A DNA stretch of 64,000 nt from Spirochaetia bacterium (lineage in GTDB: Bacteria > Spirochaetota > Spirochaetia > SP-2023), in assembly GCA_965225855.1 (NCBI GenBank), contig CBDDCK010000005.1, forward strand, positions 1,728,001-1,792,000, written 5' to 3'. Of this stretch, positions 6,688 to 56,408 are shown piece after piece. The notes below the pieces were generated by a model, which worked only from the letters and a program-made list of their open reading frames with translations, had not been told where the DNA came from and made no database searches. Each line of letters starts with the position of its first letter. Position 1 is the stretch's first letter. The position numbers and the translations under genes are program-made.

Positions 6688-6716
6688 TTGACTCACCTAC
6701 CCCCTCCTAGCATAAT
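6688..6716 (+). promoter_or_regulatory. sigma70-like promoter TTGACT-17-CATAAT with a C-rich spacer
   Basis: TTGACT 6688-6693 and CATAAT 6711-6716; homologous to the promoters at 18173-18199 and 55642-55668. Confidence 0.6.
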
Positions 6717-6764: not shown

Positions 6765-7237
6765 TTGGATGTATTGCTTATTAATAAGCAGAAATTATTT
6801 TTATTGCCTGTAGCGTTGCTACTGGGCCTTACACTGGTGTTTTCCTGCGACCCAGCCGATGACGATGATGCAAAGCCGTCTGGGCCTAGCATCACTGGTG
6901 CAACCTATGATAAGGTTAGTGCTCTTTTAGCCTTAGAAGGTTCTAACTTAGGTAATGCTAAAGCAGCGGACATCGCAAAAATCATGGTAGATGAAATAGC
7001 CTTAAGTGGCTATGTTGCAGATACCGAAGCCAAAGGGGCAGCTAGTACTGGTCTTACTGCAGGTAAGTACAGAATTAAAAACGATGGCAAGATGATTTGG
7101 ATCGTGCTTACAAGTGGAAATAAAGGTTCTCTTAATACCAAGTCCGGTATGAATATGGATGGTAAAAAACCGGTAAGCTTACTGGTACTTGGGCGGGTTT
7201 AAGTAAAGAGAAAGACTTAACCGTTACTGGTAATTAA
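6765..7237 (+). pseudogene. decayed single-repeat paralog of the modular surface lipoproteins
   Basis: Leader KLFLLPVALLL..FSCDPADDDD matches the paralogs, but ATG TAT AAG has become ATT AAT AAG and the RBS GGAGG has become GGATG. A frameshift near the A-run at ~7164-7169 moves the repeat tail (TGTWAGLSKEKDLTVTGN*, stop 7235-7237) into another frame. Confidence 0.7.
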
Positions 7238-7311: not shown

Positions 7312-7390
7312 CTATTGTTAGCTCTTAGAGCATGCGCTTACTCGGCAAGCAAGGCTTGGGTTTTAGACCAAGTCTTGCTTGCCTTTTTTG

Positions 7391-7601
7391 TATGGGCCCG
7401 AACTACTCGAACAGCATGGTGCGGGTGGAAGAAGAGCTCAAGCACCAAAGGGAACTGCTTAAAACCTTTATGCAGCAAATGGACAAGCGCTTTGAAGCTA
7501 TGCAGCAAAACATGGACAAAAGGTTTTTGATGTTGCAATGGTTTATAGCAACAGGCATTGGCCTAGTTATCGGTATCTTGGGCTTGCTTAAATTGATGTA
7601 A
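7391..7601 (+). pseudogene. DUF1640-like/CCDC90-like coiled-coil membrane-anchored protein fragment
   Basis: MVRVEEELKHQRELL..QMDKRFEAMQQNMDKRF plus a C-terminal TM. The upstream YGPELLE lies 1 nt out of frame (family pattern ELLERMVRVEEELK). Confidence 0.55.
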
Positions 7602-15279: not shown

Positions 15280-15379
15280 TATTTTCAAAAATTTATTATT
15301 TATTGTATATTACAAATTTTTGAATTCTAATAGCCCTAATTGGCTTCCCGTATTTACCAAGGCTATAATTGGCAAAAGC

Positions 15380-15450
15380 AGCCTTAATAAAAAAATTTAC
15401 AGCCTTGACAAAAAAATTTGTAGCCTTAATAAATTTTTTTCCAGCCTTGG
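15380..15450. repeat. degenerate 21-bp tandem repeat (AGCCTT...AAAAAAATTT) flanked by CCAAGGCTATAATTGGC direct repeats
   Basis: agccttaataaaaaaatttac / agccttgacaaaaaaatttgt / agccttaataaatttttttcc; related sequence at ~20376-20425 and ~53400-53480. Confidence 0.7.
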
Positions 15451-15525
15451 TATTTTCTCCATACCAAGGCTATAATTGGCCAATGCAAGCATTGCAACAA
15501 CAAGATACAGCCTAATAAGCCCAAC

Positions 15526-15569
15526 AAAAAAGCCAACCAAGCATTGCTTACCGCATTTACTTGGTTGGC
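15526..15569 (-). terminator. rho-independent terminator of the 15620-18109 lipoprotein gene
   Basis: GCCAACCAAG/CTTGGTTGGC stem followed by T6 on the minus strand. Confidence 0.7.
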
Positions 15570-15619
15570 CGCCAGCCAGCTTTCACTTAGCTGCTATAAG
15601 AGCTATTGGGCAAGCGCAG

Positions 15620-18109
15620 TCAAAAATTATTAACAATAATATAATTTAATGTTGTGTCTGCTGGACTACCAATTACAAATCCTGCTGCTGCTTCAAGGTT
15701 GTATTGACCATTAGCATTTTGAGCACCAATCGTATCAAGTATAGCATTGGCTTTGGCTTTTTCAGTACCGCTTAAAGTAATCGTTAAGCTGCCTCTACTT
15801 GCACGAGAACCTGTGGCTCTGTTTTCACCTACAGTTGAGTGCCGTGGTAATGTGTATTTCTTCTTACCATCACCGGATACAATCGTCAATTTGCTGAAGT
15901 CCCACTCTTCAACTGTTGTCGGTAAATTACTACCGTAAATCACTAACACGCCTGTACGATAATTGTATGATAAGTTATTGATTATGGCTACACGCCTACC
16001 ACTAACGGTAATAGGGTTATTGCTTGTGTCTGCTGCCCTACCACCGGCAAATCCTGCTGCTGCTTCCAGGTTGTATGCACCAGTATCATCACTATCACCA
16101 TTCTTAACCAATATATCTATGGCTTTCGTGAATTCACTACTATTTAAAGTAATCGTTAAGCTTGTTGCACTTGCTGCAGAACCTTCGGCTCTGCCTTTAT
16201 TAAAGGGCCAGGGGGGTAATGTCAATCTCTTAGTACCATCACCGGATACAAGCGTCAATTTGCTAAAGTCCCAGCCTGTAACTGCTTTTGGTAAATTGAC
16301 ACCTGTAATCACTAACACGCCTGTAACAACATTGTAGGTTGCACTGGTAATTGCGGGTGGGTTTCCACTAACGGCCAAGGCTTTGGCTGTATCTAAACCC
16401 GCCCAAGCACCAGTGCCAACGCTAAGCAACCCATCTTTTAGACCATTGCTATCCATACCTGTTTTGCCATTCAGAGTAGCTTTATCGGCATCGGTAAGTT
16501 TCAGCCAAAGCGCTGTGCCAGCGCTATGCAGGCGGTACTTACCTTTTGCAAGACCGCGACTATCTGGCCCAGTGGCTGTGGCATCTGCAATATAGGAACT
16601 TAAGGCTAGGCCATCTACCACGATGGTTTGGATTTGGGCTTGGGTCGCACTACCTAAGTCAGTACCTTGTACAGTTAACAGCGCCGTGCCAACATTGTAG
16701 CTTGCACGGGTAATTGCGGGGTTACCACTAACGGCCAAGGCTTTGGCTGTATTTAAACCCGCCCAAGCACCAGTGCCAACGCTAAGCAACCCATCTTTTA
16801 GACCATTGCTATCCATACCTGTCTTGCCATTCAGAGTAGTTTTATGTCGATCGGTAAGGTAAAGCCAAAGCTCTGTGCCAGCGCTATGCAGGCGGTACTT
16901 ACCTTTTGCAAGACTGCGACTATCTGGCCCAGTGGCTGTGCCATCTGCAGTATAGGAACTTAAGGCTAAGCCATCTACCGTGATGGTTTGGATTTGGGCT
17001 TGGGTCGCACTACCTAAGTGAGTACCTTGTACAGTTAGCAGAGCCGTGCCAACATTGTAGCTTGCACCGGTAATTGTAGCTTCGGGGTTTCCACTAACGG
17101 CCAAGTCTTTGGCTGTATCTAAACCCGCCCAAGTACCAGTGCCAACGCTAAGCAACCCTTCTCTTAGACCATTGCTATCCATACCTGTCTTGCCATTCAG
17201 AGTAGTTTTATGTTGATCGGTAAGGTAAAGCCAAAGCGCTGTGCCAGCGTTTGCAATGCGGTATTTACCTTTTGCAAGACCACGACTATCTGGCCCAGTG
17301 GCATCGTCATCTGCAGTATAGGAACTTAAGGCTAAGCCATCTACCGTAATGGTTTGGATTTGGGCTTGGGTCGCAGTTGTAGCACTTAAGTGAGTACCTT
17401 GCAAGGTTAACAGCGCCGTGCCAACATGGTAGGTTGCACGGGTAATTGCAGCTTCGGGTAGTTCAGGCGACTCTTCTTCGACTTCTTCAGCTTGTTCGAC
17501 TTCAGTTTGCTTAGGCGACTCTTCTTCAGCTTGTTCGACTTCAGTTTGCTTAGGCGACTCTTCTTCAGCTTGTTCGTCTTGTTCGTCTTCTTCAGCTTGC
17601 TTAGATGGCTGATTGTCATCGGATACTTTAGACTGCTTATTTTCGGGTACATTCCTAACGTCCAAGTCTTTAGGTGTATTTAAACCCGCCCAAGCACCAG
17701 AGCCAACGCTAAGCAACCCATCTTTTCTACCATTGCTACCCACCTTGGCCTCAAGAACAGCTTTATGTCGATCGGTAAGTCTAAGCCAAATCGCTGTGCC
17801 ATCGCTTTTAATACGGTACTTACCTTGTTCAAGACCGTTACTATCTGGCCCAGTGGCTGGGTCATCTGCAGTATAGGAATCTAAAGCTATGCCATCTACT
17901 ACGATGGTTTGGATTTGGGCTTCTGTAGGACTTAAGTCAGTACCTTGTACGGTTAACAGAGCCGTAGCAAAGTCGTAGATGGCATTATTGATAGACGGCC
18001 CAGAAGATGGCCCAGAAGATCGATCATCGTCATCGGGTGGTGCGCAGGCCAAGGCCATAAAGGCCAGTAGCAGTGCTACAGGCAATAAAAATAGTTTGAG
18101 CTTATACAT
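15620..18109 (-). CDS. modular surface lipoprotein, 4 type-A + 2 type-B ~120-aa beta-rich repeats (adhesin-like)
   Basis: GGAGG RBS, ATG 18109 and lipobox MALAC; near-identical internal DNA repeats; E/Q-rich linker. Confidence 0.85.
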   Translation of the reverse strand: MYKLKLFLLPVALLLAFMALACAPPDDDDRSSGPSSGPSINNAIYDFATALLTVQGTDLSPTEAQIQTIVVDGIALDSYTADDPATGPDSNGLEQGKYRIKSDGTAIWLRLTDRHKAVLEAKVGSNGRKDGLLSVGSGAWAGLNTPKDLDVRNVPENKQSKVSDDNQPSKQAEEDEQDEQAEEESPKQTEVEQAEEESPKQTEVEQAEEVEEESPELPEAAITRATYHVGTALLTLQGTHLSATTATQAQIQTITVDGLALSSYTADDDATGPDSRGLAKGKYRIANAGTALWLYLTDQHKTTLNGKTGMDSNGLREGLLSVGTGTWAGLDTAKDLAVSGNPEATITGASYNVGTALLTVQGTHLGSATQAQIQTITVDGLALSSYTADGTATGPDSRSLAKGKYRLHSAGTELWLYLTDRHKTTLNGKTGMDSNGLKDGLLSVGTGAWAGLNTAKALAVSGNPAITRASYNVGTALLTVQGTDLGSATQAQIQTIVVDGLALSSYIADATATGPDSRGLAKGKYRLHSAGTALWLKLTDADKATLNGKTGMDSNGLKDGLLSVGTGAWAGLDTAKALAVSGNPPAITSATYNVVTGVLVITGVNLPKAVTGWDFSKLTLVSGDGTKRLTLPPWPFNKGRAEGSAASATSLTITLNSSEFTKAIDILVKNGDSDDTGAYNLEAAAGFAGGRAADTSNNPITVSGRRVAIINNLSYNYRTGVLVIYGSNLPTTVEEWDFSKLTIVSGDGKKKYTLPRHSTVGENRATGSRASRGSLTITLSGTEKAKANAILDTIGAQNANGQYNLEAAAGFVIGSPADTTLNYIIVNNF
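17465..17600 (-). repeat. in-frame 39-bp VNTR (EQAEEESPKQTEV) in the lipoprotein linker
   Basis: Two exact 13-aa units plus partial units are visible in DNA and protein. Confidence 0.85.
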
Positions 18110-18172
18110 AAGCAATACCTCCAACAATGGATAAAGATTAACCAACCCATACGGGCTAGTCTGTAAATCCCC

Positions 18173-18199
18173 ATTTTGCTAGGGGGGGTGTTGCGTCAA
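18173..18199 (-). promoter_or_regulatory. promoter TTGACG-15-CAAAAT with a C7 tract in the spacer
   Basis: Plus strand reads attttg ctagggggggtgttg cgtcaa; identical copy at 55642-55668. Confidence 0.55.
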
Positions 18200-18299
18200 G
18201 GCCTATACAAGCTTTTTGTAAGTTTTTTTATGTTTGGGCACTTTTTTTGTGTGTTAGTGTTGTAAGGTGGTTCAAAATCCATGCCAATCAAAAGGCTTG

Positions 18300-18535
18300 A
18301 GGGTATGCGATAGCAGGCGCAACGCCAACCATGCCAACCATTGGGCGGTATCAATATATCGCAGTTGGGGTCATCGGCCCGCAATATATAGCCAGATATT
18401 GTGCAAGTCGTCTAAAATGCCAGCATTGACGCTGTGGGCTACGGTGAAAGAATGGACATACTGGCCCTATTTGAGGTCGTCCCAGTTTTGGCTTTTTACG
18501 ATGTTTTTGGGTTTTAGCAAGTCTATGGCCTGCTT
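18300..18535 (-). pseudogene. Mu-like phage minor head protein (gpF) remnant
   Basis: KQAIDLLKPK..QNWDDLK*GQYVHSFTVAHSVNAGILDDLH (TAG at 18467-18469) joined out of frame to GYILRADDP..PPNGW(HGW)RCAC; the middle of the gene is deleted. Confidence 0.7.
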
Positions 18536-18555
18536 ATTTTTATGGTTTTTAGTGC

Positions 18556-18694
18556 CTTGCTATGATATAACTTTCCGCCTTCGATCAATACCTTACTCCA
18601 ATGTGGATCAAGGCCTTGATCCAAGTTGGAAAGTTATATTGCACCAATGCGGAACAAGACTTTATACCAAGGCGGAAAGCTATATTGCAGCAAG
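18556..18694. mobile_element. MITE-like element with 26-bp imperfect terminal inverted repeats
   Basis: cttgctatgatataactttccgcctt ... aaggcggaaagctatattgcagcaag (4 mismatches); internal perfect 20-bp palindrome at 18604-18623. Confidence 0.4.
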
Positions 18695-18971
18695 ACAGGC
18701 GATGACTTGTAGATTGGCATCGGCAAACCAATTGCCCAATTGCGTTTGTATGGCTATTTCGGTTTGTTGCTTTGGATTGTTGGTTGGGGCTGGGGCAGTT
18801 ATTGGGTGGGGACGGTGGGGTGGTGCTTGGGGGTGGGGCAGTGATTGGTTTGGTGTTGGGGTGGGCTAACACCCAACAAGCGTAATGCATATTATATGGT
18901 AGTGGAGATACAGAAAGTAATTGGGTTTATGTATATGTTAGATAGTTCATTGATTCACATTTTTCTCATAC

Positions 18972-43653: not shown

Positions 43654-44676
43654 TTACTTAGCGACCTGTACAAACTGGTCTAGTATCCAGTCCAAAGCCT
43701 TAAAAGTCATAGGATCTGCCATTTCACGGCTTAATACGATCATCTGCTCGTTCTTATAAGCACTGTTATACTCACGCCAGCCGGGGGCAATATCGTCAAA
43801 ACCTGCATAAATTGTTTCAACAGTTTCACCTGTTTGGTTACGAAAGGTGGACAGCAGCCAATCGGAGTTCATTTGTACAAATGTTTCAGCACTTAATTTA
43901 CGACAAGCTTCTGTTGGTTTGTATTGTTTTTCTAGGAACGATAATTTTTTGAAACCTAAATCATAGGCAACACGTGAAAACGCACCATAGTGGATACAAG
44001 CATAATACTGCGCTTTGCCCCGAAATGGGTGGGCATAAGCAATAATCTGTTTCTCAGGTGCGACAGAAAATTTTTCCTTAACTTGTTGAAGGCGGGCTTG
44101 ATATTTTTTATAGCTTGCATTGAATTGTTCCGATTTGCCTACCCAGCCTGCTAGATCTCTAAAAACAGGTAATGGGTCTGGTCTGCCGGCCTCAATAATA
44201 ACCGTTGGAGCAATGATAGAAAATTGTTTATAATTTTTGAGATGATATTCTGTGCCCACGATTAGGTCTGGTTTTGATGCTTTAATTTGCTCTATATCTT
44301 CGCCAAATGCGCCATAATTAGCCAGATTGAGGTCTTGGAATTTCACCCCATACACTTCCTCTACTCCGCGAATATAAGGGCGGTTATCTTCATCTCCTTT
44401 AGCTCTAGTTGCCGTACCGATTAGCGGCGCGCCTAAATCCCACAGCATGGCTGTTGTAGACAAAGTGTGTAGCGAAGCAATACGCTGGGGGTTGGTGGGA
44501 ATTTCCACAACATTCCCTACGTTATCGGTAACCGTTTTCATTGCAACCGTTTTAGCTGGGACATCCGTTTGTTGAGATTTGCCGGCATTGGCCGCTTTGG
44601 TATTCTGCCGCGTACAACTCACTTGGGTTAATATTAACGAAAAAGTGAATAGCAGCATTTGCTTATATAGTTTCAT
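43654..44676 (-). CDS. iron-siderophore-type ABC substrate-binding lipoprotein (array gene 7)
   Basis: Lipobox VSC; EIPTNPQRIASL, DIEQIKASKPDLI and IAPTV class III SBP motifs. Confidence 0.92.
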   Translation of the reverse strand: MKLYKQMLLFTFSLILTQVSCTRQNTKAANAGKSQQTDVPAKTVAMKTVTDNVGNVVEIPTNPQRIASLHTLSTTAMLWDLGAPLIGTATRAKGDEDNRPYIRGVEEVYGVKFQDLNLANYGAFGEDIEQIKASKPDLIVGTEYHLKNYKQFSIIAPTVIIEAGRPDPLPVFRDLAGWVGKSEQFNASYKKYQARLQQVKEKFSVAPEKQIIAYAHPFRGKAQYYACIHYGAFSRVAYDLGFKKLSFLEKQYKPTEACRKLSAETFVQMNSDWLLSTFRNQTGETVETIYAGFDDIAPGWREYNSAYKNEQMIVLSREMADPMTFKALDWILDQFVQVAK

Positions 44677-44715
44677 AAACTACTCCTGAAAAAATATAAT
44701 TTTTTGTCAATAACA

Positions 44716-45738
44716 TTATTTTGCGTATTTCTGAAACTGATCTAATACCCAGTTCATAGCGGTAAAGCACATGGGGATAGCCTTTTCACGATTTACAGCA
44801 ATAATCTGATTTTGCTGGTAGGCCGTGCTGTTGGCTTGCCAGCCGGGTGCGACATCGTCAAAACCTTTATATATATCTTCAACCGTTTGGCCTATTTGGC
44901 TTTTATATGAAGTCAAAAGCCAGTCGGGGTTGTTCTGGGCAAACGTTTCTGCGCTCAATCTGCCTCCAGTTTCATCTGCATTAAATAACTCTGTTAAAAA
45001 CGGTAGAGGCTGGAAGCCTAAATCGTAAGCAACTTTTGTAAAAGAACCATAATGGATGCGCCCGGCATACTGTGCTTTGCCCGGATATGGATGGACATAG
45101 GCAACAGTTTGCTGGCTGGGCGCCTTAGAAAATTTTGTGCGAACCTCCGCCAATCGTTGCCGATATTCGGCTTCTTTGGCCGCAAAGACTTCACTTTTAC
45201 CAACCCAAGAAGCTAGGTCTGAAAAGGTGCTAAATAAATCAATGGTAGAATCATTGACAACAATAGTAGGGGCAATGGCTGCGTATTTTGCATAATTCTT
45301 GGAATTTTCCATATTGGCCACAATTAAGTCAGGCTGCGAAAATTTCACTTGCTCTATATCACTGCCCATCCTGCCATAACTGGCTAATTGTGTGTCTTGA
45401 AACCGTAGATCATAGACTTCTTCGACAAAACGCATATAAGTTCGTTTATCCTCGTTGGCCTTAATGCTAGTAGCTGTACCTATAAGCGGTGCGCCTAAAT
45501 CCCACAACATAACGGTGATGGTCATAGCACGCAGCGAGGCAATTCGCTTGGGGTTGGTAGGAATTTCTACTTTGTTGCCAAAATGGTCGGTAATGGTTTT
45601 CATCTCAACTGTTTTTTCAGCTGGAAGATCTCCTCCTTGTTTGCCATTATTGGCTGCTTTTGTATTTTGACGCGTACAACTAAATTGTGTTAATATTAAC
45701 AAAAAAATAAATAGCAACATTTGCTTATATAGTTTCAT
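44716..45738 (-). CDS. iron-siderophore-type SBP lipoprotein (array gene 6)
   Basis: Same class III SBP motifs and same leader family as gene 7. Confidence 0.92.
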   Translation of the reverse strand: MKLYKQMLLFIFLLILTQFSCTRQNTKAANNGKQGGDLPAEKTVEMKTITDHFGNKVEIPTNPKRIASLRAMTITVMLWDLGAPLIGTATSIKANEDKRTYMRFVEEVYDLRFQDTQLASYGRMGSDIEQVKFSQPDLIVANMENSKNYAKYAAIAPTIVVNDSTIDLFSTFSDLASWVGKSEVFAAKEAEYRQRLAEVRTKFSKAPSQQTVAYVHPYPGKAQYAGRIHYGSFTKVAYDLGFQPLPFLTELFNADETGGRLSAETFAQNNPDWLLTSYKSQIGQTVEDIYKGFDDVAPGWQANSTAYQQNQIIAVNREKAIPMCFTAMNWVLDQFQKYAK

Positions 45739-45828
45739 AAATTACTCTTTCATTTTCTAACATGATAGATTCTTTTTTGTCCATGTTGTTAACGGATTAT
45801 TGCAATTTGGGGCGTCCCAATACATGAC

Positions 45829-46806
45829 TCATGATATATAATGAACATTCATATTTAAAACGCCAAAAGAGGGGGATATATAAGACCTCGGCATGATAAT
45901 AAGCTGACCTTGGGCACAGGCTTTTAAATTTTTACAGTAATTTTTCATCAAGGTCTGCCACTCTTCTCGTGATTTCAAAGGGCCATAACCATCGGTAAAG
46001 TCAATGTACGTTCCAAAAACGAAATCTGCCTCTTGTTCGTTTAAAACCTCAGCACTAATGGGTTGTTGCCATTTACCAGCAGAGCGCATATCTTTAATCA
46101 TTTTCGAGGGCTTGAATCCCAAATCATCCAAAACCTTATGTAATACGCCCAATGCTTGATAGGCAAAAATTTTACCATCCCACGCCTCTAAGATACCATA
46201 GATGTATTCGCGCCCACGCAACCAAGTCTTACCCTTGTCAATTAGAGTGTTATACAGTTTCATTTTGTCTTTATAGTCAGACAATGTACCAGACACATCG
46301 GCTAAATCCTTGAAATAGTCTAAAATATTGGCTTGTCCATCATCTAGCAAAACCGTAGGAGCAATTTTTTCCAATTTAGGCAACATCTCCTCTTGCCATT
46401 TTAATAAGACAATCAAATCAGGCTTGATAGCAGCAGTTTTTTCAAAATCAATTGCATCGGCTGTGCCAATAAATTCAATGTTTGCATTTTCGTAGCTAAT
46501 ACCCAAAATATCACGCACAGAACGCATAAATGGATTTTTATCTTTATCAACACGACCTTGTGAACCGGCAATTTTTGCTCCTAAATCCAACAAAGGCAAG
46601 GAAACAAAGTGGTCTGACAACGAAATAATACGTTTAGGCTGCACAGGAATTTCTATTGTACGGTTAGATGAATCTGTATAAGAACGGAAATCTCTTCCTT
46701 GTTTACCATTATTGGTATTGGCTGCTTTTGTATTTTGGCGCGTACAACTAACTTGGGTTAATATTAACAACAAAGTGAATAGCAACATTTGCTTATATAG
46801 TTTCAT
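45829..46806 (-). CDS. iron-siderophore-type SBP lipoprotein (array gene 5; divergent; possible C-terminal frameshift)
   Basis: IPVQPKRIISL, KPDLI and KIAPTV motifs. Confidence 0.9.
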   Translation of the reverse strand: MKLYKQMLLFTLLLILTQVSCTRQNTKAANTNNGKQGRDFRSYTDSSNRTIEIPVQPKRIISLSDHFVSLPLLDLGAKIAGSQGRVDKDKNPFMRSVRDILGISYENANIEFIGTADAIDFEKTAAIKPDLIVLLKWQEEMLPKLEKIAPTVLLDDGQANILDYFKDLADVSGTLSDYKDKMKLYNTLIDKGKTWLRGREYIYGILEAWDGKIFAYQALGVLHKVLDDLGFKPSKMIKDMRSAGKWQQPISAEVLNEQEADFVFGTYIDFTDGYGPLKSREEWQTLMKNYCKNLKACAQGQLIIMPRSYISPSFGVLNMNVHYIS

Positions 46807-46844
46807 AAACTACTCCTGAAAAAATATAATTTTTGTCAATAACA

Positions 46845-48725
46845 TTATTTTGCGTATTGTTCCAACTGATCTAACACCCAATTTAAAGATTTAAAAGTCA
46901 TCGGATCTGCCATTTCACGGCTTAATACGATCATCTGCTCGTTCTTATAAGCACTGTTATACTCACGCCAACCAGGGGTAATATCGTCAAAGCCTTTGTA
47001 AATGTCCTCTACGGTTTGCCCAAATTGGTTACGGAATGTGGACAAAAACCAATCTGGGTTCATTTGCCCAAATGTTTCTGCACTTAACTTACGGCAAGCT
47101 TCTGTTGGTTTGTACTGTTTTTCTAAGAACGGTAATTTTTTGAAACCTAAATCATAGGCAACACGTGAAAACGCACCATAGTAGATACAAGCATAATATT
47201 GCGCTTCGCCCGGAAGTGGTTGGGCGTAAGCAATAATCTGTTTCTCAGGTGCGACAGAAAATTTTTCCTTAATTTGTTGAAGGCGGGCTTGGTATTTTTT
47301 ATAGCTTGCATTGAATTGTTCCGATTTGCCTACCCAGCCTGCTAGGTCTCTGAACACAGGTAATGGGTCTGGTCTGCCAGCCTCAATAATAACCGTTGGA
47401 GCAATGATAGACAATTGTTTATAATTTTTGAGATGATATTCCGCACCCACAATTAGGTCTGGTTTTGATGCTTTAATTTGTTCTATATCTTCGCCAAAAG
47501 AGCCGTAATTAGCCAAGTCGAAGTCTTGGAATTTCACCTCATACACTTCCTCTACCCCGCGAATATACGGGCGGTTATTCTCATCTCCCTTAGGTCTAGT
47601 TGCAGTGCCGATTAGCGGTGCGCCTAAATCCCACAGCATGGCTGTCGTGGATAGAGTGTGTAACGAAGCAATGCGCTGGGAGTTAGTGGGAATTTCTGCA
47701 ATATGTTGAAAATGATCTACTACAATTTTCGTAGTCGCTTTTCCTTTTTGAGCAACCTGAAAAAACTCATCAAGAATTAGGTCATAAGTTTTAAAACTGG
47801 TTGCAAAACTGGTTTCACGATTGCCGAGTATAAAGGTATTGTTTTGATAAGCCTTTGTAAATTTTCTCCAACCGGGCATTGCTATATCTAAAGTTTCAAA
47901 AAATTTTTGCTTGCTCACTCCGTACTGTCCGCGATAAGTGCTCAACAAATAATCAGCATCCAGAATTTCCCCCAGCACCTCCATACTAAATTTTCTGCTA
48001 TCAGTTATCTTACCGTTGTTAAATTCTTTGACGTAAAACGGATGCGCTTTGATTTCTAAATCGTAAGCCACTTTCGTCATGGCGCCATAATGGAAATAAC
48101 CAGAAAACAGGTCTCCTTTCAAACCTGCAAAATAGGCAATTGTCTTCTGACTGAGATCTTCTGGGAACTTAGCTTTGACTGCTTCGAGTTTCTCTTTATA
48201 GGATTTTTCTTTGGCATCAAAAAAATCTTTTTGCCCAATCCATTTGGCTAAATCGCCATAATGCTGATGTTTGTAATCTATCAAGATCGTTGGAGCAATT
48301 TTGGAGAGTTTCTCATAAAATTTTTGATGATAGAGTCCACCGATAATCAAATCCGGTTTAGAAGCTTTGACTCGTTCCAAATCTTCACCCATAGTACCAT
48401 AATCTGCCCAGCCTTTTTGAGAAAAATCCAAGCCAAACAATTCATAACCTGAACGAATATAGCGAATATTTTCAGGTTTTTTTATTCTGGTTGATGCGCC
48501 AATGATAGATGCTTTTATTTCATACAGCATTACTGTGATTGGATAGTGCAGTGAAGCAATGCGCTTAGGGTTGGTGGGAATTTCTACTTTGTTGCCCGCA
48601 TGATCGGTAATGGTTTTGGTTGCAGTTGGTTGCGCCGAAGGCTCTGCTATTTGCTTGCCTTTGCTGGGATTTTGTCTTGTGCAGCTCATATATAGCAATA
48701 AAAATATGTAAATATAGAGTTTCAT
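46845..48725 (-). CDS. double-domain iron-siderophore-type SBP lipoprotein (array gene 4)
   Basis: Two complete SBP domains; the second is near-identical to 43654-44676. Confidence 0.92.
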   Translation of the reverse strand: MKLYIYIFLLLYMSCTRQNPSKGKQIAEPSAQPTATKTITDHAGNKVEIPTNPKRIASLHYPITVMLYEIKASIIGASTRIKKPENIRYIRSGYELFGLDFSQKGWADYGTMGEDLERVKASKPDLIIGGLYHQKFYEKLSKIAPTILIDYKHQHYGDLAKWIGQKDFFDAKEKSYKEKLEAVKAKFPEDLSQKTIAYFAGLKGDLFSGYFHYGAMTKVAYDLEIKAHPFYVKEFNNGKITDSRKFSMEVLGEILDADYLLSTYRGQYGVSKQKFFETLDIAMPGWRKFTKAYQNNTFILGNRETSFATSFKTYDLILDEFFQVAQKGKATTKIVVDHFQHIAEIPTNSQRIASLHTLSTTAMLWDLGAPLIGTATRPKGDENNRPYIRGVEEVYEVKFQDFDLANYGSFGEDIEQIKASKPDLIVGAEYHLKNYKQLSIIAPTVIIEAGRPDPLPVFRDLAGWVGKSEQFNASYKKYQARLQQIKEKFSVAPEKQIIAYAQPLPGEAQYYACIYYGAFSRVAYDLGFKKLPFLEKQYKPTEACRKLSAETFGQMNPDWFLSTFRNQFGQTVEDIYKGFDDITPGWREYNSAYKNEQMIVLSREMADPMTFKSLNWVLDQLEQYAK

Positions 48726-48762
48726 AAAATCTCCCTAAAAATATATTTTTTTGTCAATAATA

Positions 48763-49758
48763 TTATTTTGCGTGCTTAGCAAATTCATCTAGTACAATAT
48801 CCATGACTCTAAAGGACATAGGGCGAGAACTTTCACGCGGGAATACCACAGTTTTTTGTGCTTGATAAGCAGGAATAAAATCTTTCCAGCCGGGAGCAAT
48901 ATCATCAAAACCGCTATAAACCGTTTCAGGAGTTTCGCCCCGCTGATTGTTGTAAGTTGAAAAAAGCCAGTCTGCTTGTATTTGGGGTAAATATTCGGCA
49001 CTAAGTTTGCCTCCTACATCATCTTCTTTTGGGAATTGTTGCGCAGTAAATGGTTCTATTTTAAACCCTAAATCATAAGCAACATGCGTTAGCGCACCAT
49101 AATGTTTGCGGGCTTCAAACATGGCTTTTCCCGCAAGAGGCAAAGCATAAGCAATAGTCTGCTCACTAGGTGGCTGAGAAAACATAGCTTTTGTTTTGGC
49201 CAGTTTGTTCAAATATAATTTTTTCTTTTGTTCAAAGACGGCTGTTTTGTTTACCCATTCCGCCAAATCTCGGTATATCTCAAACATATTATAAGTGCCT
49301 TGACTAATAATGATGGTGGGGGCAATGGCTGCTAGCTGTTGATATTGTTTGCTGTGTTCTTGGGTACCAACAATTAAATCTGGAACCGACTTTTTAATTT
49401 GTTCTATATCCTGACCTTTTTTACCATAGTTAAAAAGGTTTGTATCCTGAAATTTAACGTGAAACACTTCTTCTACCGAGCGAATATAAGGGCGGTTATT
49501 ATCCTCTGCTTTTAGCCGTGTAGCTGTGCCTATAAGCGGGGCTTCTAAATCCCACAACATATGCGTTGTAGATAAAGTGTGCAATGAAGCAATTCGCTTG
49601 GGGTTTTGGGGTATTTGTACTGTATGCCCCGCATGATCGGTAATGGTTTTGGTTGCAGTTGGTTGCGCCGAAGGTTTTGCTATTTGCTTGCCTTTGTTAG
49701 GATTTTGTCTTGCGCAGCTCATAGATAGCAATAAAAATATGTAAATATAGAGTTTCAT
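48763..49758 (-). CDS. iron-siderophore-type SBP lipoprotein (array gene 3)
   Basis: Class III SBP motifs; MKLYIYIFLLL-type leader. Confidence 0.92.
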   Translation of the reverse strand: MKLYIYIFLLLSMSCARQNPNKGKQIAKPSAQPTATKTITDHAGHTVQIPQNPKRIASLHTLSTTHMLWDLEAPLIGTATRLKAEDNNRPYIRSVEEVFHVKFQDTNLFNYGKKGQDIEQIKKSVPDLIVGTQEHSKQYQQLAAIAPTIIISQGTYNMFEIYRDLAEWVNKTAVFEQKKKLYLNKLAKTKAMFSQPPSEQTIAYALPLAGKAMFEARKHYGALTHVAYDLGFKIEPFTAQQFPKEDDVGGKLSAEYLPQIQADWLFSTYNNQRGETPETVYSGFDDIAPGWKDFIPAYQAQKTVVFPRESSRPMSFRVMDIVLDEFAKHAK

Positions 49759-49826
49759 AAAATCTCCTTAAACAAGACTTTAAATATATGCTAACTTCAA
49801 ATACGAAGGCTCTAAGTTATTTGGAA

Positions 49827-50819
49827 TTATTTGGCAAATTTTTCAAAAACATTAACAACCTCATTTAATGCCTTAAAAGAAGTCATCGTTTTGGCACGGT
49901 TCATGATAATAATTTGCTTATTTTTATATGCAGCATTGTAGTTTTTCCAACCAGGCGCAATATCGTCTAACGCGCTGTAAACATCGGAAGTTGTTTCACC
50001 AAACTGGTGATGATATGTAATTAATAACCAATCAGGATTAAATTGACCAAAGGTTTCAGAACTTAATTTGCTGCAATTTGCGTTAGGGTCGGACAACTGT
50101 TGTTCTACATACGGAAGATTTTTGAAACCAAGGTCATAGGCAACAATGGTAAACGCACCGTATCCACGGCATGTGAGGTACTTTGCTTTGCCTTTATAAG
50201 GATGCATATACGCTACAGTTTGATTCTTCGGATCTTTAGAAAATTTAGCTTTCAAAGACTGAATACGTTTCTTGTAAGACTTTTCTTTTTTTCTGAACTC
50301 ATCTTCTTTGCCCACCCAAGAGGCAAGATCTTTGAATACACCGTACGTAGCGGTCATCTCAGTATTAATCAAAACTGTCGGAGCAATGTCAGAGAGCTTT
50401 TCATAGTTTTTCAAATTCTTCAAACGACCGACAATCAAGTCAGGTTTTGACAATTTTATTTGTTCAATATCTTCTCCAAATTTACCGTAGTTAAAGAGTT
50501 GAGTATCGTGGAACTTTACGCCATAAAGCTCTTCCACACCACGAATATGAGGACGGTTATTTTCGTCTTTTTTCAAACGTGTAGAAACCCCTATTAGATC
50601 AGCTTCCAGATCAAACAACATAACCGATGTTGTAAGGGTGTGCAAAGAAGCAATACGCTTAGGATTTCTTGGTATTTCTACTTTGTTACCCACATGATCG
50701 GTAATGGTTTTGGTTGCAGTTGGTTGCGCCGAAGGTTCTGCTATTTGCTTGCCTTTGCTGGGATTTTGTCTTGCGCAGCTCATAGATAGCAATAAAAATA
50801 TGTAAATATAGAGTTTCAT
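49827..50819 (-). CDS. iron-siderophore-type SBP lipoprotein (array gene 2)
   Basis: Near-duplicate of 50888-51880. Confidence 0.92.
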   Translation of the reverse strand: MKLYIYIFLLLSMSCARQNPSKGKQIAEPSAQPTATKTITDHVGNKVEIPRNPKRIASLHTLTTSVMLFDLEADLIGVSTRLKKDENNRPHIRGVEELYGVKFHDTQLFNYGKFGEDIEQIKLSKPDLIVGRLKNLKNYEKLSDIAPTVLINTEMTATYGVFKDLASWVGKEDEFRKKEKSYKKRIQSLKAKFSKDPKNQTVAYMHPYKGKAKYLTCRGYGAFTIVAYDLGFKNLPYVEQQLSDPNANCSKLSSETFGQFNPDWLLITYHHQFGETTSDVYSALDDIAPGWKNYNAAYKNKQIIIMNRAKTMTSFKALNEVVNVFEKFAK

Positions 50820-50887
50820 AAAATCTCCTTAAACAAGACTTTAAATATATGCTAACTTCAAATACGAAGGCTCTAAGTTATTTGGAA

Positions 50888-51880
50888 TTATTTAGCAAAT
50901 TTTTCAAAAACATTAACAACCTCATTTAATGCCTTAAAAGAAGTCATCGTTTTGGCACGGTTCATGATAATAATTTGTTTATTTTTGTACGCAGAATTGT
51001 AGTTTTTCCAACCAGGCGCAATATCGTCTAACGCTACATAAACATCGTCCACTGTTTCGCCGAATTGATGGCGATATGTTGATAGCATCCAATCTGGGTT
51101 AAACTGCGCAAAAGTTTCAGAACTTAATTTAGCGCACTTTGCATTAGGGTCGGACAACTGTTGTTCTACATACGGAAGATTTTTGAAGCCAAGGTCATAG
51201 GCAACAATGGTAAATGCGCTGTACCCACGGCATGTGAGGTACTTTGCTTTGCCTTTATAAGGATGCATATACGCTACTGTTTGTTCTTTAGGATTTTTAG
51301 AAAACTTAGCTTTTACAGATTGTAGACGATTTTTGTACAGCTTTTCTTTTTTGTTAAACTCAGATTCCTTACCTACCCAAGAAGCAAGGTCTTTGAATAC
51401 CCCATACATATTGGGTCGCACCCCATCAATTAATACTGTTGGAGCAATGCCAGAAAGTTGTTTGTATTTTTTAAAATCATTTAATCGACCAACTATTAAG
51501 TCCGGTTTTGACAATTTTATTTGTTCAATATCTTCTCCAAATTTACCGTAGTTAAATAATTGGGTATTCTCAAATTTTACGCCATAAAGTTCTTCCACAC
51601 CACGAATATAAGGACGGTTATTTTCGTCTTTCTTCAAACGTGTAGAAACCCCTATTAGATCAGCTTCCAGATCAAACAACATAACCGATGTTGTAAGGGT
51701 GTGCAAAGAAGCAATACGCTTAGGATTTCTTGGTATTTCTACTTTGTTACCCGCATGATCGGTAATGGTTTTGGTTGCAGTTGGTTGCGCCGAAGGCTCT
51801 GCTATTTGCTTGCCTTTGCTGGGATTTTGTCTTGCGCAGCTCATAGATAGCAATAAAAATATGTAAATATAGAGTTTCAT
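50888..51880 (-). CDS. iron-siderophore-type SBP lipoprotein (array gene 1)
   Basis: Class III SBP motifs; first intact gene after the promoter. Confidence 0.92.
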   Translation of the reverse strand: MKLYIYIFLLLSMSCARQNPSKGKQIAEPSAQPTATKTITDHAGNKVEIPRNPKRIASLHTLTTSVMLFDLEADLIGVSTRLKKDENNRPYIRGVEELYGVKFENTQLFNYGKFGEDIEQIKLSKPDLIVGRLNDFKKYKQLSGIAPTVLIDGVRPNMYGVFKDLASWVGKESEFNKKEKLYKNRLQSVKAKFSKNPKEQTVAYMHPYKGKAKYLTCRGYSAFTIVAYDLGFKNLPYVEQQLSDPNAKCAKLSSETFAQFNPDWMLSTYRHQFGETVDDVYVALDDIAPGWKNYNSAYKNKQIIIMNRAKTMTSFKALNEVVNVFEKFAK

Positions 51881-52192: not shown

Positions 52193-52265
52193 TCCTCTGT
52201 AGCTCAGTTGGTAGAGCAGGTGGCTGTTAACCACCTTGTCGGGGGTTCGAGTCCCTCCGGAGGAG
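52193..52265 (+). tRNA. tRNA-Asn(GTT)
   Basis: Cloverleaf; anticodon arm GGTGG-CT-GTT-AA-CCACC; GTTCGA T-loop; no encoded CCA. Confidence 0.97.
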
Positions 52266-52267
52266 TT

Positions 52268-52292
52268 GCCACACTTTGTGTGTGGCTTTTTT
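52268..52292 (+). terminator. terminator after tRNA-Asn
   Basis: GCCACAC-TTTGT-GTGTGGC followed by a T-run. Confidence 0.75.
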
Positions 52293-52346
52293 ATTTGCCA
52301 TCGCAAGTACACTATCACAAGTTATAAAGGCTGGTCTTACAAACCC

Positions 52347-53505: not shown

Positions 53506-55578
53506 TTACCAACTTGTAACTTGAATACTAGTGGTTAGGTCTTCTGGACTACCAGGTACAAATTCTGCTGCTGCTTCAAAGTTATATGCACCAAACTCAT
53601 CACTTTTACCAACCTTAACCAGTATCTTCTCGGCTTCGGCTTTTACACTACCGCTTAAAGTAATCAATAAGCTTGTTTCACTTGCACTAGAACCTGTGGC
53701 TCTGTTTACACCTACAGTTGAGTGCTGGGGTAATGTGAATCTCTTACTACCATCACCGGATACAAGCGTCAATTTGCTAAAGTCCCAGTCTGCAACTGTT
53801 TCCGGTAACTTAGCACCTAAAATCTGTAACAAGCTTCTCTTAGTATAGTAGTATACGGTGTTGATCTGGCTTACGTACCCACTAACGGTAATAGGGTTGG
53901 TTGGGTCTTCAGCGCTACCACCTACAAAGCCTGCTACTGCTTCCAGGTTATATGCACCGTTAGCATCACGAACACCAGCCTTAACCAGTATCTTCTCGGC
54001 TTCCGCTTTTACACTACCGCTTAAAGTAATACTTAAGTAGGTTGTACCTGCACGAGAACCTGTGGCTGTGTTTTCACCTGCAGTTGTGTGCTGGGGTAAT
54101 GGGTATCTCTTACTACCATCACCGGATACAAGTGTCAATTTGCTAAAGTCCCATCCTGCAACTGCTCTCGGTAACTTGATACCTGTAATATATAACTCGC
54201 CTGTATTAGCATCGTAGGTTGCTTTGTCGATGCTGGCTACATACCCCCTAACGGTAATAGGATTGGTTGTGTCTTCTGCGCTACCACCTGCAAAGCCTGC
54301 TGCTGCTTCAAGGTTGTATGCACCATTAGCATCACGAACACCATCATTAACCAGTATAGCATTGGCTTTGGCTTTTACACTACCGACTAAAGTAATCTTT
54401 AAGAATGTTGCACTTGCTTGAGAACCTATGGCTCTGTTTCTATTTTCAGCAAGACCTATGGCTGTGTTTTCTTTCCGGGGTAATGTGAATCTCTTAGTAC
54501 CATCACCGGATACAAGCGTCAATTTCCTAAAGTCCCATTCTGCAACTGTTTTCGGTAAACGGCTACCACTAATATATAACACGCCTATACCAACATCATA
54601 GGTTGCACTGGTAATTGCGGGTGGGTGTCCACTAACGGCCAAGGCTTTGGCTGTATTTAAACCCGCCCAAGTACCAGTGCCAACGCTAAGCAACCCATCT
54701 TTTAGACCATTGCTATCCATACCTGTCTTGCCATTCAGAGTAGCTTTATGTTGATCGGTAAGGTAAAGCCAAAGCGCTGTGCCAGCGCTATGCAGGCGGT
54801 ACTTACCTTTTGCAAGACCGCGACTATCTGACCCAGTGGCATCGTCATCTGCAGTATAGGAACTTAAGGCTACGCCATCTACCGTGATGGTTTGGATTTG
54901 GGCTTGGGTCGCACTAGCTAAGTGAGTACCTTGTACAGTTAGCAGAGCCGTGCCAACATGGTAGCTTGCACCGGTAATTGCAGCTTCAGGCGACTGATCT
55001 TCAGCTTGTTCGGCTTTAGGTTGCTTAGGCGACTGCTCTTCGGCTTGTTCAGCTTGTTCAGCTTTAGGTTGCTTAGGCAACTGCTCTTCGGCTTGTTCAG
55101 CTTGTTTGGCTTGCTTAGATGGCTTATCGGGTATATTGCTAACGGTTAAGTCTTTGGCTGTATCTAAACCCGCCCAAGCACCAGAGCTAGTAAGCAACCC
55201 TTTTTTTAGACCATTGCTACCCACCTTGGCCTCAAGAGCAGCTTTATGTTCATCTTTAAGTTTCAGCCAAAGCTTTGTGCCATCGGTTGCAATACGGTAC
55301 TTACCTTTTGCAAGATCGCTACTATCTGGCCCAGTGGCTGGGTCATCTGCAGTATAGGAACTGAAGGCTACGCCATCTACTACGATGGTTTGGATTTGCG
55401 CTTCTGTAGGACTTAAGTCAGTACCTTGTACGGTTAACAGCGCCGTAGCAAAGTCGTAGCTTGCACTGGTGATTGCAGGCCCAGAAGATCGATCATCGTC
55501 ATCGGGTGGGGCGCAGGCCAAGGCCATAAAGGCCAGTAGCAATGCTAATGGCAATAAAAATAGTTTGTGCTTATACAT
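53506..55578 (-). CDS. modular surface lipoprotein, 2 type-A + 3 type-B repeats (paralog of 15620-18109)
   Basis: Near-identical leader and lipobox; same repeat units; KQPKAEQAEQAEEQ VNTR linker. Confidence 0.85.
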   Translation of the reverse strand: MYKHKLFLLPLALLLAFMALACAPPDDDDRSSGPAITSASYDFATALLTVQGTDLSPTEAQIQTIVVDGVAFSSYTADDPATGPDSSDLAKGKYRIATDGTKLWLKLKDEHKAALEAKVGSNGLKKGLLTSSGAWAGLDTAKDLTVSNIPDKPSKQAKQAEQAEEQLPKQPKAEQAEQAEEQSPKQPKAEQAEDQSPEAAITGASYHVGTALLTVQGTHLASATQAQIQTITVDGVALSSYTADDDATGSDSRGLAKGKYRLHSAGTALWLYLTDQHKATLNGKTGMDSNGLKDGLLSVGTGTWAGLNTAKALAVSGHPPAITSATYDVGIGVLYISGSRLPKTVAEWDFRKLTLVSGDGTKRFTLPRKENTAIGLAENRNRAIGSQASATFLKITLVGSVKAKANAILVNDGVRDANGAYNLEAAAGFAGGSAEDTTNPITVRGYVASIDKATYDANTGELYITGIKLPRAVAGWDFSKLTLVSGDGSKRYPLPQHTTAGENTATGSRAGTTYLSITLSGSVKAEAEKILVKAGVRDANGAYNLEAVAGFVGGSAEDPTNPITVSGYVSQINTVYYYTKRSLLQILGAKLPETVADWDFSKLTLVSGDGSKRFTLPQHSTVGVNRATGSSASETSLLITLSGSVKAEAEKILVKVGKSDEFGAYNFEAAAEFVPGSPEDLTTSIQVTSW

Positions 55579-55641: not shown

Positions 55642-55668
55642 ATTTTGCTAGGGGGGGTGTTGCGTCAA
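55642..55668 (-). promoter_or_regulatory. promoter TTGACG-15-CAAAAT with a C7 tract in the spacer
   Basis: Identical to 18173-18199. Confidence 0.55.
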
Positions 55669-55966: not shown

Positions 55967-56009
55967 TGATTATGTGCCGATGTAGAAAATTTCATTAAAG
56001 ACTAGGGTA

Positions 56010-56170
56010 TCAATAGGTGGGAGGTAATTCTATCAATAGATTTAGGTCAATTCTATCAATAGGTGGGAGGTAATTCTATTAATAGATTTGGGTCGATTCT
56101 ATCAATAGGTGCGAGGTAAATCTATTAATAGAATTAGGTCGATTCTATTAGATAGGTGGGAGGTAATTTT
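56010..56170. repeat. 46-bp tandem repeat (~3.5 copies) made of alternating 23-bp subunits
   Basis: Units start at 56010, 56056, 56102 and ~56148; palindromic CTAT(C/T)AATAG recurs every 23 bp. Confidence 0.9.
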
Positions 56171-56408
56171 ATGGGTAGAGGGGGCTGGAATATTTATTTA
56201 TCGGTATTGTTCTGCTTTAGCCTTAGCTAAAATTTCTTTTACCAGCCTATCATTAATAATAGTTTGGCTATGTTTTAGGCTTTTTTTATCTGAAGCCCTT
56301 TGGCCTTTACCTTGCGGCTCTTCTGGGTATTTAGTCGGGGCTCTTCACGCAAACAATTTTGGCCATACAGTGTCGATCGGGTTTGTTGGAAAATCCCCAG
56401 GTTGCAAA

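What the first reader, a model, noticed from the sequence alone, without database searches (positions are those of the whole stretch)
15620..18200. Dispersed family of modular surface lipoproteins with several hallmarks of a variation system
Seen: three loci (6765-7237, 15620-18109, 53506-55578) share a promoter and 5' leader and have related signal peptides. They are built from two ~120-aa modules in different counts (1A; 4A+2B; 2A+3B). Type-A modules are near-identical at DNA level within and between the intact genes. Type-B modules keep a scaffold (WDFSKLTLVSGDG, YNLEAAAGF) around variable segments. Known: spirochaetes diversify surface lipoproteins by recombination (Borrelia vls/vmp, Treponema tpr). 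Inference: an uncharacterised adhesin family diversified by module gain/loss and gene conversion. I do not recognise the A module as a named family.
Basis: partly seen in the sequence, partly recalled or inferred. Interest (0 to 1): 0.8.

Follow-up and report, generated by a model that had tools for sequence, protein, structure and literature searches.

The report
Hundred-gene shuffled surface lipoprotein repertoire
A spirochaete spends about 8% of its genome on 104 scattered lipoprotein genes, built from two predicted Ig-like modules and patchworks of one another; they likely form a variable surface coat in which most copies are kept off by a too-short promoter that would switch on when a run of C's lengthens.

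Summary
Confirmed and far larger than seen. The three loci belong to a family of 104 intact core genes (211 kb, 7.8% of a 2.71-Mb spirochaete genome), dispersed singly. Each has a signal peptide, module A, an acidic linker of variable length, then A(n)-B(n). Copies are fine mosaics: PHI p<0.001 in 4 of 5 module classes, and other assemblies hold new chimeras. B modules show piN/piS 1.3-1.7 against 0.2-0.4 in control paralogues. A and B are homologous, predicted Ig-like domains without a Pfam name. B resembles stalk repeats of giant RTX/DUF4347 proteins. Not found in 3 congeners or 400 phylum genomes.

It gives a 14-15-bp spacer in 101 of 104 genes, while this genome's promoters peak at 16-17. 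Only 3 copies reach 16-17. Best reading: a mostly silent, recombining repertoire with a few copies on (0.55). Against: C7 slips slowly, MutS/MutL are intact, C9 was not seen in short-read contigs, and no RNA data exist. The scan noted analogous tract-promoter families in other genomes, but not this sequence family. New variant of a known kind.

The parts
15620..18109 (-). Intact family gene (g102), 829-aa lipoprotein: signal peptide, A, linker, A, A, A, B, B
18044..18109 (-). Signal peptide ending in the lipobox MALA-C (Cys22); 73 of 104 core genes have MALAC-AP, 27 MAFAC-AP
17648..17998 (-). First A module (own subclass)
17453..17647 (-). Acidic E/Q/K/A/P/S linker of short repeated units; 0-186 aa across the family, 94 distinct among 104
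16361..17452 (-). Three inner A modules (17087-17452, 16721-17080, 16361-16720), 88-93% identical in DNA; predicted stalk
15629..16357 (-). Two B modules (16001-16357, 15629-15988); the last is the most variable class
18173..18199 (-). Promoter-like site: -35 TTGACG 18194-18199, C7 tract 18182-18188, -10-like CAAAAT 18173-18178; spacer 15 bp
18110..18172 (-). Shared 5' leader with a small stem-loop (AGCCC-GTAT-GGGTT) and GGAGG RBS
18200..18950 (.). Phased A-tracts and a mosaic of repeated upstream elements; homology among copies fades over 200-900 bp without a sharp end
15280..15619 (.). Shared downstream repeated and palindromic elements
53506..55578 (-). Intact family gene (g103), 690 aa: A 55132-55479, linker, A 54625-54984, B 54244-54621, 53878-54237, 53512-53871
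55642..55668 (-). Promoter-like site of g103: C7 tract 55651-55657, spacer 15 bp
6780..7237 (+). Degenerate divergent member (g101): one A module, ATT at the start position, altered RBS, module end in another frame
6688..6716 (+). Promoter-like site of g101: TTGACT, interrupted C tract, 17-bp spacer, CATAAT

Best explanation
This is a 104-gene lipoprotein family whose copies are recombinant mosaics of one another, and it likely works as a mostly silent surface-variation repertoire in which only the few copies with a 16-17-bp promoter spacer would be expressed. SHOWN: dispersed, intact, single genes on all contigs; fine-scale exchange between copies; variable module number and linker length; excess amino-acid diversity in the distal B modules; a poly-C tract of 6-9 bases between -35 and -10 in every core gene; 101 of 104 spacers shorter than this genome's working spacing. 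PREDICTED: A and B are Ig-like beta-sandwiches in a beads-on-a-string stalk, with hypervariable residues alternating along strands of the tip domain. INFERRED: surface exposure; exchange by RecA/Ruv-dependent segmental gene conversion and unequal crossing-over, using the shared promoter, leader and flanks as homology; OFF at C6/C7 and ON at C8/C9; the ON allele arising by slippage and, more likely given the short tract, moving between loci by the same gene conversion; selection by a host-recognition or phage pressure, or for varied host ligands.
For: Size and layout: 115 ORFs, 104 intact core genes, 210,939 bp; median spacing 16 kb on C5, both strands. Recombination: PHI 0 of 1000 permutations in A_first, A_inner, B_mid and B_last. 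Clonal simulations on the same tree were not significant for A_inner and B_first. Incompatibility saturates within ~30 bp in A. Median gene 96% tiled by exact matches to ~22 other copies, best donor 19%; same nearest neighbour for two modules of a gene in only 5-25 of 84-102 genes. Private differences 0.04-0.12 against 0.05-0.32 in clonal simulations. Four full-length proteins from other assemblies are 92-94% tiled by G000 pieces, e.g. P0072 = 117 aa of the window gene plus pieces of others; P0042 = 290 aa of g086 plus g002-like pieces. Selection: piN/piS B_last 1.68 (95% 1.34-2.11), B_mid 1.49, B_first 1.26 (0.99-1.64), against 0.2-0.43 for 10 pairs of tandem solute-binding paralogues. Promoter: C7 84, C6 18, C8 1, C9 1; spacers 15 x84, 14 x17, 16 x1, 17 x2. 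Among 267 non-family TTGACN sites, TAnnnT peaks at 16 and 17 (38 each, 11.3 expected) and is depleted at 15 (3). 84 of 136 C7/G7 runs and 2 of 3 longer runs of the genome lie in these promoters. Tract length differs on otherwise identical promoter haplotypes, and C6 and C7 both appear in short-read contigs. Divergent members g041, g047, g055 and g101 have interrupted or short tracts and 16-17-bp spacers. Precedent: T. pallidum tp0126 and meningococcal porA need the 17-nt spacing (PMC7864442 passages). RecA and RuvB are present.
Against: No transcript or protein data. The -10-like hexamer starts with C (CAAAAT/CACAAT), and CAnnnT is barely enriched at 16-17 in the genome's other promoters (13 against 9.6 expected). 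C7 is short: in mismatch-repair-proficient meningococci G7 switched at 6.5e-10 and G8 at 2.4e-8 (PMC4085013 section 17), and MutS and MutL are intact here, so slippage alone looks too slow for classical phase variation. No listed short-read contig spans the C9 of g061 without a gap and no C8 row appeared (113 pieces not shown, contigs drop rare variants), so C9/C8 could be assembly errors. g061 is no more mosaic than the average gene. PHI was not significant for B_first on all sites (686 of 1000; 22 of 1000 on third positions) nor for A_inner on third positions (60 of 1000). piN/piS in A modules is 0.86 with intervals spanning 1. The fold matches are middling (Z 6.5-7.8). The Asp run after the lipidated Cys gives no proof of surface exposure. 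The chimeras in other assemblies could be assembly chimeras.
Confidence: 0.55

Rival explanations
1. Co-expressed binding repertoire: all or many copies are transcribed from a non-canonical 15-bp promoter under a common activator or repressor (an inverted repeat, CCCTA-N6-TAGGG or CCCC-N9-GGGG, brackets the -10). The cell displays a mixed coat of varied adhesins or decoys, diversified by the same recombination.
For: The 15-bp spacer is kept in 84 of 104 genes and all keep RBS, signal peptide and open frame. The inverted repeat is in most promoter classes. Phased A-tracts lie upstream. Tip residues vary among Tyr/Arg/Ile/Asn as in binding surfaces. C7 slips slowly. In M. gallisepticum, vlhA genes with non-optimal repeat numbers are also expressed (PMC6258824 passage).
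Against: Spacer 15 is depleted among the genome's other TTGACN promoters. Divergent relatives use 16-17 with interrupted tracts. Conversion alone can keep silent copies intact. No regulator was identified.
Confidence: 0.25
2. Fixed expression site with an archive (Borrelia hermsii vmp or Anaplasma msp2 type): one locus such as g061 (C9) or g107 (17 bp by a 3-base insertion) is permanently on and receives coding segments from ~100 silent donors, with leader and downstream palindromes as crossover arms.
For: Only 3 of 104 promoters have a working spacing. Shared upstream and downstream homology flanks every gene, as UHS/DHS do in B. hermsii (PMC6011951, search listing). Mosaicism is segmental.
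Against: Every copy keeps its own promoter and RBS. No locus has a unique strong promoter. g061 is not unusually mosaic, and g107 has no B module. C9 was not seen in contigs of the same sample or of a second strain (inconclusive).
Confidence: 0.13
3. Largely neutral or selfish expansion: a cassette copied round the genome by ectopic recombination between flanking repeats and homogenised by conversion, without a variation function.
For: Flanks are mosaics of repeated elements. GC skew is scrambled. The family is lineage-restricted.
Against: 104 intact frames over 211 kb with few broken copies. Hydrophobic core positions are conserved while alternate strand positions are hypervariable. piN/piS exceeds 1 in B. 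No terminal repeats or sharp ends.
Confidence: 0.05
4. Diversity-generating retroelement or site-specific DNA inversion drives the variation.
For: Hypervariable C-terminal domain; two tyrosine recombinases in the genome.
Against: No RVT_1 match in the 94%-complete genome (the control rang in 3 of 14 genomes). No adenine bias in variable sites. Congeners lacking the family have 2-4 tyrosine recombinase matches too. The genes are dispersed, not clustered.
Confidence: 0.02

Closest known systems
Mycoplasma gallisepticum vlhA family
   Same: [quoted passage not shown]
   Different: vlhA genes lie in tandem clusters, use GAA repeats upstream of the start site and lack a sigma-70 consensus. Here 104 genes are dispersed singly, the tract is a homopolymer inside a sigma-70-type spacer, and the protein is an unrelated Ig-like string.
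Treponema pallidum tp0126 / tpr and Neisseria porA spacer-tract phase variation
   Same: Homopolymer between -35 and -10; 17 nt permissive (PMC7864442 passages).
   Different: Single genes or a few, with longer tracts (tprL 7-11 G, mostly 9). Here the tract is C6-C7 in 102 of 104 genes and switching is untested.
Neisseria opa family
   Same: Dispersed complete copies, each switched separately, with hypervariable regions exchanged by recombination (PMC4534519 passage).
   Different: About 11 copies, beta-barrel proteins, translational CTCTT switch.
Borrelia hermsii vmp / B. burgdorferi vls
   Same: Spirochaete surface lipoproteins varied by gene conversion; flanking homology (PMC6011951 and PMC2780311, search listings).
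   Different: One expression site and ~60 silent genes. Here every copy has a promoter and RBS. No Vlp/Vsp/VlsE Pfam match; their helical fold is recalled.
Unnamed tandem repeat domain of giant DUF4347 / RTX (hemolysin-type Ca-binding, DUF4214) proteins of Proteobacteria
   Same: B is homologous (hhalign 97.4%, E 1e-11 to P0092; 607 clusters at E<=0.001; 4-15 copies per protein).
   Different: There it is a repeated stalk unit inside 1,000-7,000-aa proteins. Here it is the variable tip of a small lipoprotein. A has no such outside match above 40 bits except in 7 closely related proteins.
Leptospira LigA/LigB (recalled)
   Same: Spirochaete lipoproteins made of tandem Ig-like domains.
   Different: Few genes with named Big domains (recalled); no Big-family Pfam hit for the window proteins or for 49 B modules.

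Membership tests
Spacer-tract phase-variable genes (porA/tp0126 type) | Homopolymer between -35 and -10 hexamers | tested here: met
   104 of 104 core promoters
Spacer-tract phase-variable genes (porA/tp0126 type) | Tract length differs between otherwise identical sequences | tested here: met
   C6/C7/C8/C9 on identical haplotypes between paralogues; C6 and C7 in short-read contigs
Spacer-tract phase-variable genes (porA/tp0126 type) | Reversible length change at one locus within a population | tested here: inconclusive
   Contigs cannot be assigned to a locus and drop rare variants; C9/C8 not listed
Spacer-tract phase-variable genes (porA/tp0126 type) | Transcription depends on tract length | not testable with these tools
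   Only the genome's own spacing statistics
Gene-conversion antigenic variation (vls/vmp/msp2 type) | Segmental exchange among paralogues | tested here: met
Gene-conversion antigenic variation (vls/vmp/msp2 type) | Single expression site with promoterless or truncated donors | tested here: not met
   104 copies are full length with promoter-like site, RBS and signal peptide
Gene-conversion antigenic variation (vls/vmp/msp2 type) | RecA/RuvAB machinery | tested here: met
   RecA, RuvB; dependence on them untested
Borrelia Vlp/Vsp/VlsE, Treponema Tpr/Msp, Mycoplasma VlhA, Leptospira Lig protein families | Sequence match to the family profile | tested here: not met
   No such Pfam or NCBIfam hit at E<=1 for the window proteins or at E<=0.1 for 49 B modules
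Ig-like beta-sandwich (S-layer / IPT-like) | Structural match of the model | tested here: inconclusive
   AF2 pLDDT 90.4 (A) and 92.6 (B), mostly strands plus one helix. Best VIA matches SbsC domain Z 7.8, rmsd 2.6, 92 aligned (B) and EA1 Z 6.5, rmsd 2.7, 77 aligned (A). Foldseek had no E<=0.001 match; Z under 8 may be a common arrangement
Spirochaetal lipoprotein | Signal peptide with lipobox Cys | tested here: met
   Cys22 after a basic N-region and hydrophobic core in 104 of 104, by inspection; no predictor run
Spirochaetal lipoprotein | Surface exposure | not testable with these tools
   Inferred from the variability pattern and from homologues in giant RTX-type proteins
Diversity-generating retroelement target | Reverse transcriptase and adenine-specific variation | tested here: not met
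Insertion sequence / MITE cassette | Sharp ends with terminal inverted repeats | tested here: not met
   Homology fades gradually over 200-900 bp upstream and 200-400 bp downstream; target-site duplications not tested

The most novel reading that the evidence does not exclude
A default-off repertoire with no fixed expression site: ~100 complete genes are silenced by a two-base promoter mis-spacing, the rare ON promoter allele is handed from locus to locus by the same gene conversion that scrambles the coding sequence, and the product is a binding protein with an antibody-like hypervariable beta-sheet face built from a stalk domain taken over from giant proteobacterial adhesins.
Probability: 0.25. 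Interest if true: 0.87.

Novelty: new variant of a known kind. Interest (0 to 1): 0.72.

Why it matters
It would be one of the largest bacterial repertoires of complete, separately promoted variable surface genes (104 against up to 70 vlhA and ~11 opa in PMC4534519), in a spirochaete lineage whose three congeners show no match. It joins three known tricks in one family: segmental conversion, module and linker size change, and a spacer tract. It makes a sharp test of how a cell could express few of many complete genes without an expression site: three named loci should dominate the RNA. It also defines two unnamed Ig-like domains; B occurs in 607 protein clusters and lacks a Pfam model.

Tried and rejected
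Pfam/NCBIfam: no credible family for the genes or B modules. PDB sequence search: nothing. Foldseek: no E<=0.001 match. ESM Atlas: unnamed clusters at 0.90-0.93, the same for A and B, and a PF13753 SWM-repeat lead at 0.87-0.90 that no HMM confirmed. Pattern scan of genome contigs with the B alignment: 47 candidates, none confirmed, although profile searches later found relatives. No RNA holder listed. Rfam: 3 tRNAs only, no hit on the leader. The leader's consensus fold has one small hairpin without compensatory changes, so no RNA switch is claimed. A sigma-54-like motif ~150 bp upstream lacks the -12 GC (read from the sequence; consensus recalled) and was rejected. Link between family genes and genome rearrangement: the GC-skew test was uninformative (sign switch 0.42 at 86 genes against 0.46 at random sites). 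The gene after argB in two congeners maps 1.5-3.1 kb from family genes in G000, but the neighbours of the second marker gene map 5.5-8.6 kb away; inconclusive. Read test of the C9 tract: inconclusive. Lineage below phylum was not established (searches gave nothing); 'spirochaete' rests on three FlaA matches. DGR, invertase and IS models rejected as listed. No complex prediction was run, as no partner is known.
Full report
Observation. The three loci exist as described: 15620-18109(-), 829 aa, 4A+2B; 53506-55578(-), 690 aa, 2A+3B; and a degenerate single-A member at 6780-7237(+), with ATT at the start position and the module end in another frame. Inner A modules are 88-96% identical in DNA. The first A is a separate subclass.

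Genome-wide extent. The window is C5:1728001-1792000 of a 2,712,625-bp, 5-contig assembly, 94% complete with 0.68% contamination. Three FlaA matches mark it as a spirochaete. Profiles of A and B hit 115 of 25,909 six-frame ORFs, and rebuilt profiles found no more. I set aside 11 rows: 2 B fragments, 4 divergent genes (g026, g041, g047, g055), 3 truncated (g065, g101, g106) and the two halves of one split gene. That leaves 104 intact core genes, 442-1003 aa, 210,939 bp or 7.8% of the genome. Two further 5' stubs or pseudogenes and one gene with only the related signal peptide exist. Core genes lie singly on both strands, median spacing 16 kb on C5. All begin signal peptide, Cys22, A, and no B precedes an A. 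There are 14 architectures (AABB 35, AABBB 20, ABBB 16, AAABB 14, AAAABB 9, others 10) and an acidic linker of 0-186 aa, 94 distinct among 104. Family sequence lies within 4 kb of 6 of 10 contig ends. Short-read contigs confirm high copy number in the same organism (X1, X3) and in a second, ~99% identical strain (X5).

Recombination. A PHI-type test of my own gave 0 of 1000 permutations at or below the observed value for A_first (106 sequences), A_inner (139), B_mid (42) and B_last (103). B_first (102) was not significant on all sites (686 of 1000) and weakly so on third positions (22 of 1000). A_inner on third positions gave 60 of 1000. Five clonal simulations each for A_inner and B_first were not significant. 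The median gene is 96% tiled by exact matches of 15 bases or more to other copies, in 39 segments from about 22 donors, the best donor giving 19%; I ran no clonal control on this tiling. Distance matrices of modules from the same gene barely correlate (rho -0.01 to 0.19), the nearest neighbour is shared in 5-25 of 84-102 genes, and similarity does not follow chromosomal distance. Private differences and segregating sites are fewer than in clonal simulations in all five classes. Of 12 ENA proteins examined, 4 full-length ones are new chimeras 92-94% tiled by G000 pieces, 5 are shorter or partial members (77-86% tiled) and 3 are distant relatives. Assembly chimeras cannot be excluded.

Selection. 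Counting-method piN/piS is 0.86 in both A classes (intervals span 1), and 1.26 (0.99-1.64), 1.49 (1.09-2.05) and 1.68 (1.34-2.11) in first, middle and last B, against 0.2-0.43 for the window's solute-binding paralogues. piS is only 0.11-0.16, so homogenisation of silent sites contributes to the ratio. In the last B the most variable columns (5, 7, 16, 18, 62, 69, 117, 119) alternate along predicted strands and carry Tyr, Arg, Ile, Asn and Thr, while the WDFSKLTLVSGDG and YNLEAAAGF segments are nearly fixed. That these columns form one face is an inference.

What the modules are. No Pfam, NCBIfam or PDB sequence match. A and B are homologous over their first 70 columns (hhalign 87-89%). AlphaFold2 models are confident (pLDDT 90.4, 92.6). 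The best structural matches for both are Ig-like S-layer domains (SbsC Z 7.8, EA1 Z 6.5), a middling level that shows no function. B is homologous to an unnamed repeat found 4-15 times (up to 31 stretches) in giant DUF4347, hemolysin-type or DUF4214 proteins named from Methylobacter, Nitrosomonas, Marinomonas, Acidovorax and Magnetospirillum. In a 74-row tree (35 G000 modules, 39 outside), G000 modules and five near-identical outside rows form one branch (99/97). The divergent genes g047, g055 and g041 branch deepest within it, and small lipoproteins P0097, P0098, P0116 and P0174 lie between it and the giant proteins (midpoint root, 124 columns, so no donor is claimed). Neither profile matched three congeners (89-92% complete) or two further genomes of the order, and B matched none of 400 other phylum genomes: not found in those searched.

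The promoter. Every core gene has TTGAC(G/T/C), five bases, a C run, three bases and CA(A/C)(A/G)AT. Tracts are C7 84, C6 18, C8 1 (g087), C9 1 (g061); spacers are 15 in 84, 14 in 17, 16 in 1 and 17 in 2 (g061, and g107 by a 3-base insertion). At 267 other intergenic TTGACN sites, TAnnnT peaks at spacers 16 and 17 (38 each, 11.3 expected), is at background at 14 (14) and is depleted at 15 (3). These promoters hold 84 of the genome's 136 C7/G7 runs and 2 of its 3 longer runs. Length varies on identical haplotypes. The window's own g101 differs from the core promoter by two extra spacer bases, one interrupting the C run, giving 17 bp; g041, g047 and g055 likewise have 16-17 bp and no long pure tract. 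This is the anatomy of tp0126 and porA (PMC7864442, passages). Against the switch: the -10 starts with C; G7 tracts switch at 6.5e-10 in repair-proficient meningococci (PMC4085013, abstract and section 17), although a meningococcal C5/C6 tract varies between strains (PMC5084427, passages); MutS and MutL are intact; and short-read contigs showed C6 and C7 but no listed C8 or C9 (contigs drop rare variants, 113 pieces not shown). An inverted repeat brackets the -10 and could be an operator.

Mechanism. Most likely (0.55): a surface repertoire, renewed by segmental gene conversion and unequal exchange through RecA/Ruv (present), in which mis-spacing silences most copies. A longer tract, made by slippage or copied in by conversion, would turn on a few. 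Rivals: co-expression under a regulator (0.25), fixed expression site (0.13), neutral expansion (0.05), DGR or inversion (0.02). The recombinational diversification is well supported whichever expression model holds. The selecting agent is unknown. The runs holding the organism are mostly other DNA (up to ~1.1 Gb of contigs), which fits a host association but does not show it.

Comparison and novelty. It works like M. gallisepticum vlhA (many complete, separately promoted genes; PMC6258824 and PMC4534519, passages) and Neisseria opa, with a tp0126-type tract and vls-type mosaicism (PMC6011951 and PMC2780311 seen only as search listings). It is a member of none of these protein families. Searches found no description of this family; subscription papers and supplements were not searched. 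The scan's notes hold no look-alike sequence but several analogous poly-G/C promoter families in other genomes (unchecked AI notes), so the tract design alone is not new. Verdict: real, new variant of a known kind, interest 0.72.

Noticed in passing
window 43654-51880 (-): Tandem array of seven related solute-binding lipoprotein ORFs (one with two domains) upstream of ABC ATPase and permease genes, iron-siderophore type by inspection; under ordinary purifying selection (piN/piS 0.2-0.43, five used as control).
   Followed up: partly
window 7332-7601 (+): 89-aa coiled-coil ORF with a C-terminal hydrophobic segment, no Pfam match; 24 tblastn hits in the genome, 15 within 2 kb of a family gene.
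   Followed up: partly
window 56008-56195: Array of ~23-bp units upstream of g103; the exact unit occurs 15 times in the genome.
   Followed up: partly
L017 (G000:C5:206269-209289): g041: 981-aa lipoprotein with ~800 residues of 11-aa S/N/Q/T/P repeats (mucin-like stalk) ending in a single B module; 16-bp promoter with interrupted C tract.
   Followed up: partly
L018, L020 (G000:C5:353640-357599, 571721-574798): g047 and g055: divergent members with interleaved A and B, two further N-terminal module types also seen in P0116, and a canonical 17-bp promoter; they branch deepest in the family.
   Followed up: partly
whole genome: GC skew has no two-replichore pattern on any contig; no link to family genes could be shown.
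   Followed up: partly
whole genome: C/G runs drop abruptly above 7 bases (136 of length 7, 3 longer), while A/T runs fall smoothly.
   Followed up: no
window 52193-52265 and 52236-53192: tRNA followed by a YgjP-like metallopeptidase gene, convergent with g103.
   Followed up: no
window 18554-18697: Long imperfect inverted and direct repeats (46-47 bp) in the upstream repeated element of g102.
   Followed up: no
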